Below are positions 680 through 50,511 of a stretch of DNA of 50,704 bases, one piece after another. This DNA is from Vicinamibacterales bacterium (lineage in GTDB: Bacteria; Acidobacteriota; Vicinamibacteria; Vicinamibacterales; Fen-181), in contig DASVIS010000077.1 in the NCBI GenBank assembly GCA_036381995.1, forward strand, positions 1-50,704, in the 5' to 3' direction. Below the pieces are notes generated by a model, which saw only the letters and a list, made by a program, of their open reading frames with translations, searched no databases and was not told the origin of the DNA. Made by a program: the position numbers and the translations under genes. Each line of letters begins with the position of its first letter. Within the stretch, counting starts at the first letter, position 1.

Positions 680-754
680 TGGTGGCCAGGCCCAGGATTG
701 AACTGGGGACACCCCGGTTTTCAGCCGAGTGCTCTACCGCTGAGCTACCTGGCC
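680..754 (-). tRNA. tRNA-Phe (anticodon GAA), CCA encoded
   Basis: The reverse complement folds by hand as GGCCAGG-TA-GCTC-AGCGGTA-GAGC-A-CTCGG-CTGAAAA-CCGGG-GTGTC-CCCAG-TTCAATC-CTGGG-CCTGGCC-A-CCA (75 nt). All four stems are Watson-Crick and the anticodon loop is CT-GAA-AA. Confidence 0.93.
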
Positions 755-46403: not shown

Positions 46404-46904
46404 CCGCAGGAAGCCAGACGATCGCCGCGCCGCGGTTGTCCCGCCGCGTTCGCGCGGTGGGAGACGCCGGGGCGGGGAGGAAAGTCCGAACTCCGCAGGG
46501 CAGTGCGCCGGGTAACGCCCGGTCAGGGTGACCTGAAGGAAAGTGGCACAGAAAATATACCGCCCCGGACGTGGTCCGGTCCTGCCGCACGCCGGGAGTA
46601 GCCGCGCGGATGATCGCGCGCGGCAACTCCTTTCAGGTGCGGCGGCAGAACCGGGCCACGTTCGGAGTAAGGGTGAAAAGGTGCGGTAAGAGCGCACCGC
46701 GCCGACGGTAACGCCGGTGGCAGGCAAAACCCCGCACGGAGCAAGACCAAATAGGGAGGCGCTAACAGGACGGCCCGTCCGAAGCCTCCGGGTAGGTCGC
46801 TTGATCCCGCCAGCGATGGCGGGGCTAGAGGAATGGTCGTCACGCCATAGCGGGCCGCAAGGCGCGCGAAGGCGGACAGAACTCGGCTTACGGCTTCTCT
46901 GCGG
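46404..46904 (+). ncRNA. rnpB: RNase P RNA, bacterial type A, with an expanded P12 arm
   Basis: Universal blocks are read directly: GGAGGAAAGTCCG, ACAGAAAATATACCGCC, GTAAGGGTGAAAAGGTGCGGTAAGAGCGCACC, GCAAGACCAAATAGG, ACAGAACTCGGCTTAC. P1 pairs CCGCAGGAAGCC (46404-46415) with GGCTTC-T-CTGCGG (46892-46904). P2 pairs GACGATC with GGTCGTC. End positions are +/- a few nt. Confidence 0.9.
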
Positions 46905-46982
46905 CGCTTTCGTCGCCGTATTTCGTGTTTCGGCTCCAGAATTCCCGGCTCCCGAATCCCGGATTTCCAGGATCCTACGCCT

Positions 46983-47924
46983 ATGTCTCTCTATCTCGTG
47001 ACCGGCGGCGCCGGCTTCATCGGCTCGCACCTGTGCGAAGAACTCGCTCGTCGCGGAGAACGGGTGCGCGTCGTGGACAGCCTGATTACGGGCAAGCGCG
47101 CGAACCTCGCGCACGTTCCAGACGTGGATTTCCTCGAGGGCGATCTTGCCGAGATCGACGTGGCGCACCGCGCCGTGGCCGGCGTGGACTACGTGCTGCA
47201 CCAGGCGGCCATCCCCTCCGTGCCGCGATCGGTCAGCGACCCGATCACGTCGAACCGCTCGAACATCGACGCGACGCTGAACGTGCTGGTGGCTGCTCGT
47301 GACGCGGGCGTCAAGCGCATCGTCTACGCCGGCTCGTCCTCGGCGTACGGCGACACGCCGACGCTCCCGAAGCGCGAGGAGATGCCCACGAACCCGCTCT
47401 CGCCGTACGCGCTTCAGAAGCTGGTCGGGGAGCAGTATCTGGCGATGTTCACGAAGCTGTACGGACTCGACACGGTGACGACCCGGTACTTCAACGTGTT
47501 CGGGCCGCGCCAGGATCCATCGTCCCCGTACTCGGGCGTGATTTCGCTCTTCATCAGCGCCCTCGTCGACGGGCGCCAGCCGATCATGTACGGCGATGGC
47601 GGGCAGACGCGGGATTTCACGTATGTCGCGAACGTGGTGGACGGCGTCCTCCGCGCCTGCCACGCACCCGGGATTGGCGGACAGATGATGAACGTCGCGA
47701 CGGGCGGCCGCATCAGCCTCAACGAGCTGCTGACGACGATGTGCGGGATTCTCGGGGTGCAGACGCAGGCGATCTACCGGGAAGCGCGGGCGGGCGACGT
47801 GCGCGATTCGCAGGCCGACATCACTCGGGCAAAGCGGCTCATCAACTACGTCCCGTTCGTGGACCTGCACGACGGACTGGAGCGAACGCTGGCCTGGTAC
47901 AGATCCGCTCAGCCCACCAGCTAG
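46983..47924 (+). CDS. NAD-dependent UDP-sugar 4-epimerase-like SDR (WbpP/TviC-like)
   Basis: LVTGGAGFIGSHL, SSSAYGD, SPYALQK (YxxxK), NVFGPRQDP. Confidence 0.88.
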   Translation: MSLYLVTGGAGFIGSHLCEELARRGERVRVVDSLITGKRANLAHVPDVDFLEGDLAEIDVAHRAVAGVDYVLHQAAIPSVPRSVSDPITSNRSNIDATLNVLVAARDAGVKRIVYAGSSSAYGDTPTLPKREEMPTNPLSPYALQKLVGEQYLAMFTKLYGLDTVTTRYFNVFGPRQDPSSPYSGVISLFISALVDGRQPIMYGDGGQTRDFTYVANVVDGVLRACHAPGIGGQMMNVATGGRISLNELLTTMCGILGVQTQAIYREARAGDVRDSQADITRAKRLINYVPFVDLHDGLERTLAWYRSAQPTS

Positions 47925-48015
47925 GGATCTTTCTAGCAGGCTCCCCGTGGAGCTTTCGGACTTCGTGATCGATGGCGGAAACGTGTCGGCTGCACACGGC
48001 AGCCGGTCAGACCCC

Positions 48016-48222
48016 TCAACTGCCCCCGAACCCGATCGTCACCTTGTCGCCGTCGACGATGACGGGCACGTCGCGGCGCCCCTTCGAGTGGACGAGCATC
48101 CGATCGAGCGACGCCCGATCCTTCTTCACGTTGACGTACTCGAACTCGATTCGCCGCCTTGCATGGTCGTCACGGGCGGCCTGTGTATAGGGTCAAGTGT
48201 CCTTGCCGAAGATGTAGATCAT
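48016..48222 (-). CDS. glutaredoxin-fold mini-protein with in-frame TGA at the redox-Cys position (candidate selenoprotein; alternatively a pseudogene)
   Basis: Hand translation of the minus strand: ATG 48222, MIYIFGKDT, TGA (48193-48195), PYTQAARDDHARRRIEFEYVNVKKDRASLDRMLVHSKGRRDVPVIVDGDKVTIGFGGS, stop 48016-48018. The frame stays open for 58 codons after the TGA. The layout matches glutaredoxin/NrdH, with U-P-Y-T in place of C-P-Y-C. It is not in the ORF track. Confidence 0.55.
48153..48180 (-). promoter_or_regulatory. candidate SECIS hairpin 3' of the in-frame UGA
   Basis: On the mRNA strand: GCCGCC-CGUG-ACGAC-CAUG-CAA-GGCGGC. It has a 6-bp lower stem, a 4-bp upper stem (one G-U) and a 5-nt apical loop containing G. 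The stem begins 13 nt after the UGA. Confidence 0.35.
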
Positions 48223-48382
48223 TCCCCAATCGTATACCAGTCGGAACTGGCGCGATCAGGCGCCGGAAGCAAAGCAGGAACGCGGGGAGTCCGGCACCTG
48301 ACGACTGCAGGCTCCGGGACACCGGCTATAATTCTGCCGTCCAGCCTGATTTCGTCACGTCGCCCGGCATCCGGAGGCTGAT

Positions 48383-50371
48383 ATGAACCTGATCGATCTT
48401 CGTCCGACCCCAGCGAATTCGTCGTGGCGAGTCGCGCTGGCGGTCACGACGACCGCGCTGGTGCTGGTGCTGGCGTCGCCGATGGGCGCGCAGGCTCCAC
48501 CGAAGCAGCCCGCGACTCCTTCGGCGCTCCCGGGCGAGACACCCGCCACGTTCACGCCGGTCACGGGACGCTTCGACTACGTACGCCGAGACCTGATGAT
48601 CCCGATGCGAGACGGCGTAAGACTCCACACCGTCGTCCTCGTGCCCAAGGGCGCGAGGAACGCCCCGATTCTCCTGACGCGCACGCCCTACGACGCGACG
48701 CGCCTCACCAGCTACGCGGAGAGCGCGCACTTGGGGCCGATCCTGAACGGCTACGACAATGCCGTCGACGTGATCGTCGAGGGCGGCTACATCCGAGCCG
48801 TGCAGGACGTTCGAGGCAAGTACGGGTCCGAAGGCGACTACGTGATGAACCGGCCACTGCGCGGGCCGCTCAATCCGACGCCGGTCGATCACGCTACCGA
48901 CACCTACGACACGATCGACTGGCTGGTGAAGAACATCCCGGAGACCAACGGCAAGGTCGGGATCCTCGGGATCTCATACGACGGCTTCCTCCCGCTGATG
49001 GCGCTCGTCAACCCGCACCCCGCGCTCAAAGTTTCGGTCCCGATGAACCCGATGGTGGACGGCTGGCGCGGGGACGACTGGTTCCACAACGGCGCGTTCC
49101 GGCAGCAGAACCTGCCGTACATCTACGAGCAGGAAGCAACGCGCGGCTCCGAGCTGAAGTGGTGGTCGGCCCACTACGACGACTACGCCCAGTACCTGGA
49201 GGCCGGGTCGGCCGGCGAACTCGGCCGCACGCACGGCCTCGAACAGGTCGGGTTCTGGCGAAAGATCCTCGAGCACCCCGCCTACGACGCGTTCTGGCGC
49301 GAGCAGGCCGTGGACACGTTGCTGGCCGCGCAGCCGCTGCAGGTGCCCGTGATGCTGGTGCACAGCCTGTGGGACCAGGAGGACATCTACGGCGCGCCCG
49401 CCGTGTACAGGGCGATCGAGCCGAAAGACACGGCGAACGACAGGGTGTTCCTCGTATTGGGGCCCTGGTACCACGGGCAGGAAATCGGTGACGGCAGTGC
49501 GATTGGCGCGATCAGGTTCGGCAGCGATACCGCCCTGGCGTTTCGCCGCGACATCCTCGCGCCGTTCCTCGCGCAGTACCTGAAGGACGGCGCGCCCAAG
49601 GCCGACGTCGCGCCCGTCATGGCGTTCGAGACGGGCACGAACACGTGGCGCCGGCTGAACGCGTGGCCGTCGGGCTGCGTCACGGGGTGCACGGTCACGC
49701 CGACGCCGCTCTACCTCGGCGCCGGGCTGACGCTGGGATTCACGGCCCCGAAGGCCGGCGAGGCGACATTCGACGAGTACGTCTCGGATCCGGCCAAGCC
49801 GGTCCCCTATCTCCCGAGGCCCAATCGGCCGTCGAGCGGCCCGGGGTGGTCGGAATGGCTGACGACCGATCAGCGCGAGGCGTCGGGGCGGCCGGACGTG
49901 GTCGCGTTCGTGTCGGATGTGCTCACGACGCCGGTGAAGATCAGCGGGCAGCCGGTGGCGAACCTCGTGGCGTCCACGAGCGGCAGCGACTCGGACTGGG
50001 TCGTGAAGCTCATTGACGTCTATCCTGACGAAGTGGCGCCGCGGCCCGCGATGGGCGGCTACCAGCTGATGGTGTCGGCGGACATCTTTCGCGGCCGGTA
50101 TCGCGAAGGCCTCGACACGCCGAAGCCGGTCGCGCCCGACACCCCCTTGCTCTACACGTTCGACCTGCCGACGGTCAACCACGTGTTCCTGCCCGGCCAC
50201 CGGATCATGGTGCAGATCCAGTCGAGCTGGTTCCCTCTCTACGACCGGAACCCTCAGACGTTTGTGCCGAATATCTTCTGGGCGAAGCCCTCGGATTTCC
50301 GCAAGGCCGTGCAGCGCGTCTACCACGCGCCCGGCCGGGCCAGCTTCGTGCAACTGCCGCTGGTCCGGTAG
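48383..50371 (+). CDS. CocE/NonD-family hydrolase (peptidase S15, X-Pro dipeptidyl-peptidase-like), secreted
   Basis: Signal peptide ALVLVLASPMGAQA, MRDGVRLHTVVLVP, LLTRTPYD, GILGISYDG (nucleophile elbow GxSYxG), C-terminal beta-sandwich region. RBS GGAGG lies 6 nt upstream. Confidence 0.88.
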   Translation: MNLIDLRPTPANSSWRVALAVTTTALVLVLASPMGAQAPPKQPATPSALPGETPATFTPVTGRFDYVRRDLMIPMRDGVRLHTVVLVPKGARNAPILLTRTPYDATRLTSYAESAHLGPILNGYDNAVDVIVEGGYIRAVQDVRGKYGSEGDYVMNRPLRGPLNPTPVDHATDTYDTIDWLVKNIPETNGKVGILGISYDGFLPLMALVNPHPALKVSVPMNPMVDGWRGDDWFHNGAFRQQNLPYIYEQEATRGSELKWWSAHYDDYAQYLEAGSAGELGRTHGLEQVGFWRKILEHPAYDAFWREQAVDTLLAAQPLQVPVMLVHSLWDQEDIYGAPAVYRAIEPKDTANDRVFLVLGPWYHGQEIGDGSAIGAIRFGSDTALAFRRDILAPFLAQYLKDGAPKADVAPVMAFETGTNTWRRLNAWPSGCVTGCTVTPTPLYLGAGLTLGFTAPKAGEATFDEYVSDPAKPVPYLPRPNRPSSGPGWSEWLTTDQREASGRPDVVAFVSDVLTTPVKISGQPVANLVASTSGSDSDWVVKLIDVYPDEVAPRPAMGGYQLMVSADIFRGRYREGLDTPKPVAPDTPLLYTFDLPTVNHVFLPGHRIMVQIQSSWFPLYDRNPQTFVPNIFWAKPSDFRKAVQRVYHAPGRASFVQLPLVR

Positions 50372-50511
50372 ACGGCGCAGGCAGACCCCCTTGCTTCCGG
50401 CTCGGCGCAGCCCATAGACGGGATTCACGCTGGGGGGCGAGCGGCGCTGGCAGCTTCATGCGGGCGATCGTACACGTCTTCGTGACTGCGAGTCTGGTGC
50501 CACCGACCGGT

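What the first reader, a model, noticed from the sequence alone, without database searches (positions are those of the whole stretch)
48016..48222. Hidden glutaredoxin-fold gene with UGA at the catalytic Cys position: candidate selenoprotein
Seen in sequence:
- A minus-strand frame starts at ATG 48222 and reads MIYIFGKDT, then TGA (48193-48195).
- It stays open for 58 more codons (PYTQAARDDH...GRRDVPVIVDGDKVTIGFGGS) to the stop at 48016-48018.
- Third positions after the TGA remain G/C-rich, like neighbouring genes.
- A GC hairpin (48153-48180) starts 13 nt after the UGA and has a small G-containing apical loop.

Established knowledge:
- The beta1-CPYC-alpha1 ... VP-beta3-beta4-GF layout is the glutaredoxin/NrdH fold.
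- Bacterial selenoproteins are very often thioredoxin-fold proteins with Sec replacing the N-terminal redox Cys.
- They need a SECIS hairpin immediately 3' of the UGA.

Inference: the motif here is U-P-Y-T, a mono-selenol glutaredoxin-like protein rather than a nonsense-mutated pseudogene. The six-frame ORF track cannot show it because the TGA splits it below the size cutoff.
Basis: partly seen in the sequence, partly recalled or inferred. Interest (0 to 1): 0.7.

Follow-up and report, generated by a model that had tools for sequence, protein, structure and literature searches.

The report
Known double-selenocysteine glutaredoxin-like gene (UXX-star)

Summary
The sequence reads as described: ATG 48222, TGA at 48193-48195, 58 more open codons, and a hairpin at 48153-48180. 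The "stop" at 48016-48018 is also a TGA, followed by Gly-Val and the true stop at 48007-48009.

With U read as C, the 71-aa product scores 119 bits (cut-off 72) against NCBIfam NF041114, "UXX-star selenoprotein family 1". A 2026 review lists this family with motif UxxT and two Sec residues.

Across 84 homologous genes, almost all from Acidobacteriota/Vicinamibacterales MAGs:
- Codon 10 is TGA in 41 and Cys in 43.
- The C-terminal codon is TGA in 83/83, always followed by two codons and a stop (TGA 41, TAG 37, TAA 5).

Both UGAs have a SECIS-type hairpin:
- **First hairpin (in the coding sequence):** its synonymous sites are frozen only in the Sec10 genes. The stem forms in 34/39 Sec10 genes and 1/43 Cys10 genes.
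- **Second hairpin (47987-48005, just after the true stop):** it shows strong compensatory covariation and occurs in 73/81 genes, against about 7% of controls.

An independent metagenome assembly reproduces both TGAs. Sec-machinery genes could not be checked, because nothing beyond the window is available.

Verdict: a correct catch with an incomplete gene model. It is not a mono-selenol protein, and the family is already known.

The parts
48007..48222 (-). Complete gene: 71 codons plus the true stop, encoding MIYIFGKDT-U-PYTQ...GFGGS-U-GV. It is a member of UXX-star selenoprotein family 1.
   Evidence: Translation. NF041114 scores 119.4 bits against a cut-off of 72 and covers profile positions 1-70 of 70. 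PF00462 Glutaredoxin. An exact copy is present in the independent assembly L086.
48220..48222 (-). ATG start codon
   Evidence: An in-frame stop lies 12 codons upstream, with no ATG, GTG or TTG in between. Homologues start at the same position, M-[VI]-x-I-F-G-K-D.
48193..48195 (-). UGA codon 10 (Sec) in the U-P-Y-T motif, at the N-cap of helix alpha1
   Evidence: This column is TGA in 41 and TGC/TGT in 43 of 84 distinct homologous genes. At least 13 Sec/Cys switches occur on a rough tree. In the AF2 model helix 1 starts at residue 11.
48153..48180 (-). SECIS element 1, inside the coding sequence. Lower stem GCCGCC/GGCGGC (48175-48180 with 48153-48158), upper stem CGUG/CAUG, loop ACGAC, 3-nt bulge CAA. 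It starts 12 nt after UGA10.
   Evidence: Fold. 89.7% of cells pair across 36 Sec10 genes, without covariation. The 6-bp stem forms in 34/39 Sec10 genes and 1/43 Cys10 genes, p = 1e-16. Third-position entropy collapses at codons 15-17 and 22-23 only in the Sec10 genes.
48016..48018 (-). UGA codon 69 (Sec), three residues from the C-terminus.
   Evidence: TGA in 83/83 loci, always followed by two sense codons (mostly Gly-Val) and a stop. The NF041114 score rises from 110.3 to 119.4 bits when C-G-V is appended.
48007..48009 (-). True stop codon (TGA)
   Evidence: At this position homologues have TGA 41, TAG 37 and TAA 5, which is ordinary stop-codon usage. The upstream Sec codon is TGA 83/83.
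47987..48005 (-). SECIS element 2, in the 3' untranslated region. It has a 7-bp stem CGGCUGC/GCAGCCG and loop CGUGU. It starts 10 nt after UGA69 and 1 nt after the true stop.
   Evidence: A positioned hairpin occurs in 73/81 homologues, against 6.7/81 in shuffles and 6.6% after ordinary stops. Covariation is 0.377 vs 0.153 on the raw MAFFT alignment and 0.498 vs 0.138 on the CM alignment, with 0/500 shuffles reaching either value. Only 2/81 are followed by a T-tract, and the terminator scan found nothing.

Best explanation
Window 48007-48222 (minus strand) encodes a 71-residue glutaredoxin-like selenoprotein of the known 'UXX-star selenoprotein family 1' (NCBIfam NF041114), in its double-selenocysteine form.

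Shown here:
- Two in-frame UGA codons, at codons 10 and 69.
- Each UGA is followed at a fixed distance (10-12 nt) by its own G+C-rich stem-loop carrying a CGUG motif.
- The first stem-loop lies inside the coding sequence. The second lies in the 3' UTR directly after the true stop, which is only two codons beyond UGA69.

Inferred from the established bacterial Sec pathway: SelB bound to Sec-tRNA(Sec) and GTP docks on each hairpin and delivers Sec to the UGA held at the correct spacing. This also explains why UGA69 is read as Sec while UGA72, 1 nt from the hairpin, terminates.

Inferred at lower confidence (about 0.45) from the fold: residue 10 sits at the N-cap of helix alpha1, the nucleophile position of thioredoxin-fold enzymes, with Thr in place of the resolving Cys (U-P-Y-T). 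The invariant Sec69 sits on a flexible Gly-rich tail that emerges after beta4 at the Grx 'GG' site next to the active site. The two would then form a reversible diselenide (a selenenylsulfide in the Cys10 forms). The protein would act as a small redox shuttle with a tail-to-active-site relay, similar to the GCUG tail of mammalian thioredoxin reductase. Its substrate and reductant are unknown.
For: Family membership:
- NF041114 scores 119.4 bits against a cut-off of 72, over the full profile.
- A review table gives motif UxxT and 2 Sec for NF041114.
- NCBI names homologues 'UXX-star (seleno)protein family 1'.

UGA10:
- TGA in 41 and Cys in 43 of 84 homologues.
- The SECIS 1 stem forms in 34/39 Sec10 genes and 1/43 Cys10 genes.
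- Third-position entropy at codons 15, 16, 17, 22 and 23 is 0.34/0/0.68/0.17/0.75 bits in Sec10 genes and 1.49/1.36/1.29/1.65/1.65 in Cys10 genes. Outside the hairpin the two sets are alike, 0.92 vs 1.03.

UGA69:
- TGA in 83/83, then two codons, then a stop (TGA 41, TAG 37, TAA 5).
- A positioned hairpin occurs in 73/81, against about 8% of shuffles and 6.6% of ordinary stops.
- All six stem pairs show compensatory changes, and 0/500 shuffles reach the covariation score.

Not an error: the independent assembly L086 (99.73% identical, 10 mismatches over 3.7 kb) carries the identical gene with both TGAs, and L087 confirms TGA69.

Fold: the AF2 model has pLDDT 86 with a coil tail after b4. The nearest structures are cGrx1 7c12/7c10, NrdH 1h75/4fiw, BC3987 and Mrx1, TM 0.76-0.83.

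Lineage: Acidobacteria/Acidobacteriota include Sec users.
Against: - No selA, selB, selD or tRNA-Sec is present in the 50.7-kb window or in about 1.25 Mb of homologous flanks. The rest of the source genome is not available, so the machinery is unverified.
- SECIS 1 shows no covariation because it is nearly invariant. Its support rests on the Sec10 versus Cys10 contrast.
- Single-sequence fold z-scores are weak, and no Rfam family matches.
- No protein-level evidence exists.
- The redox-pair mechanism is inference only.
- Gene neighbourhoods are housekeeping genes that vary between genomes and give no functional clue.
Confidence: 0.9

Rival explanations
1. One reading: a mono-selenol protein with Sec only at codon 10, in which TGA 48016-48018 is the real stop (68 residues).
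For: Most public gene calls end there, at 68-69 aa. The 68-aa product already passes the NF041114 cut-off, 110.3 bits against 72.
Against: That codon is TGA in 83/83 loci, while the stop two codons later uses all three stop codons. The probability of 83/83 TGA under ordinary stop usage is about 4e-26. The two intervening codons are conserved as Gly-Val. A covarying hairpin follows at SECIS spacing and lacks a terminator T-tract. The profile's last three positions match, adding 9 bits. The review lists 2 Sec for the family.
Confidence: 0.03
2. A pseudogene (nonsense-mutated glutaredoxin) or a sequencing or assembly error at the TGA.
For: Half of the family has Cys at codon 10, one point mutation away (TGY to TGA). 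No Sec machinery is visible in the window.
Against: TGA occupies the same column in 41 independent genomes, with an intact, conserved reading frame downstream. A hairpin is maintained by selection on synonymous sites only in the TGA genes. The gene is identical in an independent metagenome assembly that differs at 10 other sites. GC3 is 0.84 after the TGA.
Confidence: 0.02
3. The UGAs are recoded, but not to selenocysteine. One route is a SECIS/SelB-like system loaded with Cys (selC*-type tRNA-Cys with anticodon UCA). Another is an acidobacterial allo-tRNA suppressor. A third is a genome-wide reassignment of TGA to Trp or Gly.
For: tRNA-Sec-like Cys tRNAs with paralogous SelB exist in some bacteria, and allo-tRNAs that may act as suppressors occur in Acidobacteria (PMC5389517). 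JGI translated two homologues with TGA read as W. The source genome's tRNAs are unseen.
Against: selC* was reported in Firmicutes, Thermodesulfobacteria, Nitrospirae and Proteobacteria, not in Acidobacteria. TGA still works as a stop in the same mRNA, at 48007-48009. At that position homologues have TAG or TAA in 42/83, which rules out a global reassignment. About half of the high-GC3 ORFs in the window also end in TGA. The Cys/TGA alternation at a redox position, with a hairpin at fixed spacing, is the classical Sec signature.
Confidence: 0.04
4. Functional rival, with the same gene model: the two selenols act as a metal or metalloid ligand pair (for example Hg, As or Cu chelation or trafficking) rather than as a catalytic redox couple.
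For: [quoted passage not shown] The resolving Cys is replaced by Thr. The terminal Sec sits on a flexible tail, as in metal-handling C-terminal motifs.
Against: No metal-resistance or transport genes are consistently adjacent. Neighbours are peptide deformylase, an MBL-fold hydrolase, ThiI, an ABC ATPase and a thioesterase in other genomes, and an epimerase and an S15 peptidase in the window. The fold and active-site position are those of thiol-disulfide oxidoreductases.
Confidence: 0.3

Closest known systems
UXX-star selenoprotein family 1 (NCBIfam NF041114), called 'Distant Grx-like protein 1' in the 2026 prokaryotic selenoproteome review (PMC13188914)
   Same: The full-length profile match is well above the cut-off. 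The protein is about 70 aa with a Grx fold. It has a U/C-x-x-T motif at the N-terminus and Sec three residues before the C-terminus. The family is listed with 2 Sec. The closest relatives (up to 82% identity) are Acidobacteriota/Vicinamibacterales genes that NCBI names with this family.
   Different: Nothing essential differs. The window copy has Ser instead of the usual Thr before the C-terminal Sec (shared with L016 and L045), and a different gene neighbourhood from most relatives.
Clostridium oremlandii selenoprotein glutaredoxin Grx1 (cGrx1; PDB 7c10/7c12; Kim et al. 2011, cited in PMC13188914)
   Same: It is the best sequence and fold match among solved structures, TM 0.76-0.79. It is a Grx fold with Sec at the N-terminal active-site position.
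   Different: cGrx1 has a U-x-x-C dithiol-type motif and a single Sec, with no C-terminal Sec tail. Here the motif is U-P-Y-T, the second redox residue is a C-terminal Sec, and there is no C-terminal helix. Sequence identity is only about 26%.
NrdH-redoxin / mycoredoxin / BC3987 (minimal Grx-like thioredoxin-fold proteins)
   Same: They share the same compact fold of about 75 residues, TM 0.76-0.83.
   Different: Those proteins use a CxxC (or CxxC-like) pair within helix 1 and contain no Sec. NCBIfam NrdH and mycoredoxin models score far below their cut-offs here, at 28 bits against 86-90.
C-terminal Gly-Cys-Sec-Gly tail of mammalian thioredoxin reductase (an analogy of mechanism, from general knowledge)
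   Same: Both have a penultimate-region Sec on a flexible Gly-rich C-terminal tail that shuttles redox equivalents to and from a buried active site. In both, the SECIS necessarily lies beyond the stop codon.
   Different: TrxR is a large flavoenzyme with a eukaryotic SECIS and is unrelated in fold. The relay in the window's protein is only inferred.
Canonical bacterial SECIS (E. coli fdhF type)
   Same: Both are stem-loops beginning about 10-12 nt after the UGA with a G/U-containing apical region. SECIS 1 lies inside the ORF, as in the textbook case.
   Different: SECIS 2 lies entirely in the 3' UTR, 1 nt after the true stop. The review describes bacterial SECIS elements as residing within coding regions. 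No Rfam model matches either element.

Membership tests
[quoted passage not shown] | HMM score above the curated cut-off over the full profile | tested here: met
   119.4 bits against a cut-off of 72, residues 2-71 on profile positions 1-70 of 70. Sister families 2 and 3 score below their cut-offs.
[quoted passage not shown] | Sec (UGA) as the third-from-last residue, followed by two codons and a stop | tested here: met
   TGA 48016-48018, GGG GTC, TGA 48007-48009. The same layout is found in 83/83 homologous loci.
[quoted passage not shown] | N-terminal U/C-x-x-T motif (the review lists UxxT and 2 Sec) | tested here: met
   U-P-Y-T at codons 10-13. Homologues have TGA in 41 and Cys in 43, and P-Y-T is invariant.
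[quoted passage not shown] | Small glutaredoxin-like fold of about 70 aa | tested here: met
   PF00462 at 33.4 bits. The AF2 model of the homologue at 81% identity has pLDDT 86.4 and topology b-a-b-a-b-b. The best PDB fold matches are Grx and NrdH.
Bacterial selenoprotein (general) | In-frame UGA aligned with Cys in homologues | tested here: met
   Met for codon 10, with 43 Cys homologues. For codon 69 no Cys homologue was seen among 83 loci; the column is TGA throughout.
Bacterial selenoprotein (general) | SECIS stem-loop at the proper spacing 3' of each UGA, maintained by selection | tested here: met
   SECIS 1 is supported by synonymous-site constraint specific to the Sec10 genes. SECIS 2 is supported by positional enrichment and compensatory covariation.
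Bacterial selenoprotein (general) | Genome encodes selA, selB, selC (tRNA-Sec) and selD | not testable with these tools
   None is present in the window or in the flanks of 79 homologous loci. Only lineage-level literature support exists.
Bacterial selenoprotein (general) | Selenium demonstrated in the protein (75Se labelling or mass spectrometry) | not testable with these tools
   This needs an experiment.
Dithiol glutaredoxin / NrdH (CxxC oxidoreductases) | C-x-x-C active site, with the resolving Cys in helix 1 | tested here: not met
   The fourth motif position is an invariant Thr. GRX_bact, NrdH and mycoredoxin models score 28-36 bits against cut-offs of 86-90.

The most novel reading that the evidence does not exclude
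It is never replaced by Cys in 83 genomes, while position 10 has switched between Sec and Cys at least 13 times, and Sec10 is always accompanied by Thr9. This would fit a self-contained 71-residue diselenide/selenenylsulfide relay, in which a Sec-Gly tail occupies the site where glutathione's Cys-Gly binds in ordinary glutaredoxins. It would be a built-in selenium analogue of the Grx-glutathione mixed disulfide, widespread in soil Acidobacteriota and so far not characterised biochemically.
Probability: 0.35. Interest if true: 0.45.

Novelty: already known. Interest (0 to 1): 0.22.

Why it matters
For annotation: the gene is invisible to ordinary gene callers. In the same organism's metagenome contig only a 37-aa fragment is called, relatives are labelled 'glutaredoxin 3' and truncated at 68 aa, and some are translated with TGA read as Trp. 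The correct model (48007-48222, U10 and U69) is therefore worth recording.

For biology: the locus is a clean natural example of two Sec codons served by two separate SECIS elements in a 216-nt gene. One element is inside the ORF and one is wholly in the 3' UTR, 1 nt after a UGA stop. This illustrates spacing-based discrimination between a Sec UGA and a stop UGA only 6 nt apart.

It does not open a new question, because the family and its double-Sec nature are already catalogued. Its biochemical function remains unknown.

Tried and rejected
- RNAalifold on the raw MAFFT alignment of the 3' region gave no consensus structure, because the hairpins were out of register. I replaced it with a fixed-helix count, per-sequence detection with controls, and a CM realignment.
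- SECIS 1 covariation test: no covariation, because the stem is nearly invariant. I replaced it with the Sec10 versus Cys10 synonymous-site contrast.
- Rfam at gathering and permissive thresholds: only RNase P RNA and tRNA, nothing at the locus.
- tRNA-Sec search in the window and in 60 homologous loci: none.
- tblastn with E. coli SelA, SelB and SelD against the window and all flanks: no hits.
- Source-record look-ups with the S15 peptidase and the sigma-54 regulator found nothing. The epimerase look-up succeeded.
A Cys10 homologue lacking the tail was modelled instead.
- Haft & Tolstoy 2025, probably the primary description of the UXX-star families, is not in the library. The GOS paper that the review cites for this family does not describe it explicitly in its main text. 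BSepDB does not mention it.
- The promoter and terminator scan of 47850-48450 found nothing.
- A crude screen for other TGA-interrupted genes in the window found nothing credible. It would also have missed this gene.
- Neighbourhood clustering gave only variable housekeeping neighbours.
- The window contains no paralogue.

Full report
**Observation**

ATG at 48220-48222 gives MIYIFGKDT, then TGA at 48193-48195, then 58 sense codons ending in GFGGS, then a stop triplet at 48016-48018.

GC3 after the TGA is 0.84, against 0.66 and 0.41 in the other two frames. The hairpin at 48153-48180 exists.

Two caveats apply. First, 28% of all TGA triplets in this 66% G+C window are followed by at least 58 open codons, and the single-sequence fold z-scores are weak. 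The raw observation alone is therefore not beyond chance. Second, the 'stop' at 48016-48018 is itself TGA. It is followed by GGG GTC and a second TGA at 48007-48009, and then by another G+C-rich hairpin.

**What it is**

With U written as C, the 71-residue product scores 119.4 bits against NCBIfam NF041114, 'UXX-star selenoprotein family 1'. The curated cut-off is 72, and all 70 profile positions are matched.

Sister families and ordinary Grx, NrdH and mycoredoxin models fall below their cut-offs. Pfam gives PF00462 Glutaredoxin.

[quoted passage not shown] The window encodes exactly this: U-P-Y-T at codons 10-13 and U-G-V-stop at the end. The family is therefore already known, including its double-Sec form.

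**Comparative evidence for the two Sec codons**

A protein search returned 789 relatives. Most were called as 68-69 aa 'glutaredoxin 3', and several were named by NCBI as UXX-star family 1 from Vicinamibacterales. Two of them carried W at both positions, and their DNA shows TGA there.

A scan of GTDB species genomes used only N-terminal peptide patterns. It returned 79 loci, almost all Acidobacteriota/Vicinamibacterales MAGs.

In 84 distinct genes, codon 10 is TGA in 41, TGC in 23 and TGT in 20. The C-terminal codon is TGA in 83 of 83. It is always followed by two sense codons (mostly Gly-Val) and a stop, which is TGA in 41, TAG in 37 and TAA in 5.

Under the stop-codon usage seen at the true stop, the chance of 83/83 TGA is about 4e-26. 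On a rough NJ tree, position 10 switched between Sec and Cys at least 13 times.

**SECIS 1 (48153-48180, inside the ORF)**

Among 36 Sec10 genes, 89.7% of the proposed pairs form, but the stem is nearly invariant, so there is no covariation signal.

The informative test is the contrast with the Cys10 genes, which encode the same Ala-Ala-Arg...Arg-Arg residues.
- The 6-bp stem GCCGCC/GGCGGC forms in 34/39 Sec10 genes and 1/43 Cys10 genes (p = 1e-16).
- The single Cys10 exception, L007, is a close relative of Sec10 genes and looks like a recent conversion.
- Third-position entropy at codons 15, 16, 17, 22 and 23 is 0.34/0.00/0.68/0.17/0.75 bits in Sec10 genes and 1.49/1.36/1.29/1.65/1.65 bits in Cys10 genes.
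- Outside the hairpin the two sets are alike (0.92 vs 1.03), and their overall divergence is similar (0.755 vs 0.717 identity).

Selection on synonymous sites therefore exists only where a UGA has to be decoded.

**SECIS 2 (47987-48005, 3' UTR)**

In the window, a 7-bp stem CGGCUGC/GCAGCCG with loop CGUGU starts 10 nt after UGA69 and 1 nt after the true stop.
- A perfect stem of at least 6 bp, starting 9-16 nt after the UGA and with a 3-5 nt loop, occurs in 73/81 distinct homologues.
- The same criterion is met by 6.7 ± 2.2 of 81 dinucleotide shuffles and by 35/528 (6.6%) ordinary stops of long ORFs in the same loci.
- Only 2/81 are followed by a T-tract, so these are not terminators.

Stem sequences differ widely between genomes.
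- On the unadjusted MAFFT alignment, 78.5% of cells pair against 62.0% in shuffles. There are 75 double-sided changes against 29.7, and the covariation score is 0.377 against 0.153 (0/500 shuffles). Slid controls give 35-52%.
- After realignment to a covariance model, the figures are 87.8% against 62.3%, 102 against 32, and 0.498 against 0.138.

The model hits the window only at this site. Both elements in the window share a 'G+C stem followed by CGUG' layout. Arg17 uses the otherwise rare CGU codon in 32/39 Sec10 genes.

**Not an artefact**

The neighbouring epimerase is encoded identically on two JGI metagenome contigs from different samples.
- L086 is 99.73% identical to window 46654-50386, with 10 mismatches. 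It contains an exact copy of 47987-48222 with both TGAs.
- L087 covers the second TGA.

The gene caller on L086 found only a 37-aa fragment.

**Fold and mechanism**

An AlphaFold model of the closest Cys10 homologue (81% identity, pLDDT 86.4) has b1(2-6), a1(11-22), b2(27-31), a2(36-46), b3(54-57) and b4(60-63), followed by a coil tail.

The best PDB matches are C. oremlandii cGrx1 (the Cys form of a natural selenoprotein Grx), NrdH-redoxins, BC3987 and mycoredoxin, with TM 0.76-0.83.

Residue 10 is thus at the helix-1 N-cap, the nucleophile site of thioredoxin-fold enzymes. The resolving position is an invariant Thr, and there is no C-terminal helix.

From established Grx structure knowledge, the Gly-Gly segment after b4 lines the glutathione site next to the active-site Cys. 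Here it is followed directly by (S/T)-U-G-V.

I therefore infer, without having shown it, that Sec69 on the flexible tail reaches residue 10 and forms a diselenide, or a selenenylsulfide in the Cys10 forms. The protein would be a tail-relay redox shuttle. A metal-ligand role, which the review raises, is the main functional rival.

Decoding is inferred from the standard bacterial pathway, in which SelB bound to Sec-tRNA(Sec) docks on each hairpin. The 10-12 nt spacing explains why UGA69 is read as Sec, while UGA72, only 1 nt from the hairpin, terminates.

**Context**

The gene stands alone. An NAD-dependent epimerase (46983-47924, +) converges on it, and an S15 X-Pro dipeptidyl-peptidase (48383-50371, +) diverges from it. 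An RNase P RNA (46406-46906) and a sigma-54 response regulator lie further on.

In other genomes the neighbours are peptide deformylase, an MBL-fold hydrolase, ThiI, an ABC ATPase and a 4HBT thioesterase. None of these is in the window, and none suggests a function.

**What could not be tested**

At lineage level, Acidobacteria/Acidobacteriota include Sec-decoding organisms. selC*-type Cys opal suppressors were not reported for that phylum.

**Verdict**

The family (NF041114), with two Sec residues, is already catalogued.

Novelty is 'already known' and interest is low. Three points of modest residual interest were not followed up:
- The C-terminal Sec is invariant, while position 10 toggles between Sec and Cys.
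- Thr9 is coupled to Sec10: 41/41 Sec10 genes against 15/43 Cys10 genes, p = 1e-11.
- The family has not been characterised biochemically.

Noticed in passing
window 48196-48198 (codon 9), and the same column in L001-L083: Residue 9 is Thr (ACN, third base free) in 41/41 genes with Sec at codon 10, but in only 15/43 genes with Cys there (Fisher p = 1e-11). This looks like an amino-acid-level coupling between Thr9 and Sec10 and is unexplained.
   Followed up: partly
window 48016-48018, and the same column in 83 loci: The C-terminal Sec codon is never replaced by a Cys codon (83/83 TGA), even though the loci were collected with N-terminal patterns only. Codon 10 switched between Sec and Cys at least 13 times on a rough tree. 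The tail Sec appears to be the indispensable residue.
   Followed up: partly
L007:10028-10081: This gene has TGT (Cys) at codon 10 but retains an intact SECIS 1 hairpin, identical to its Sec10 relatives. It appears to be a relic SECIS left by a recent Sec-to-Cys change.
   Followed up: partly
L086:1363-1476, and proteins P0001 and P0003 (L001:754-960, L004:2164-2370): Public gene calls for this family are systematically wrong. In a near-identical population of the window's organism (L086) only a 37-aa fragment is called. Most relatives are labelled 'glutaredoxin 3' and truncated at 68 aa. Two were translated with TGA read as Trp.
   Followed up: yes
window 46406-46906 (+): A bacterial class A RNase P RNA (Rfam RF00010, 250 bits) lies between the sigma-54 response regulator and the epimerase. 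Many spurious long ORFs overlap it in the six-frame list.
   Followed up: no
window 680-754 (-): tRNA-Phe (GAA) is the only tRNA in the window.
   Followed up: no
window 48171-48174 and 47995-47998: Both SECIS elements carry CGUG immediately after the 5' arm of the G+C stem. In SECIS 1 this forces the rare Arg codon CGU (32/39 Sec10 genes, against CGC in Cys10 genes). It may be a lineage-specific SelB recognition motif.
   Followed up: partly
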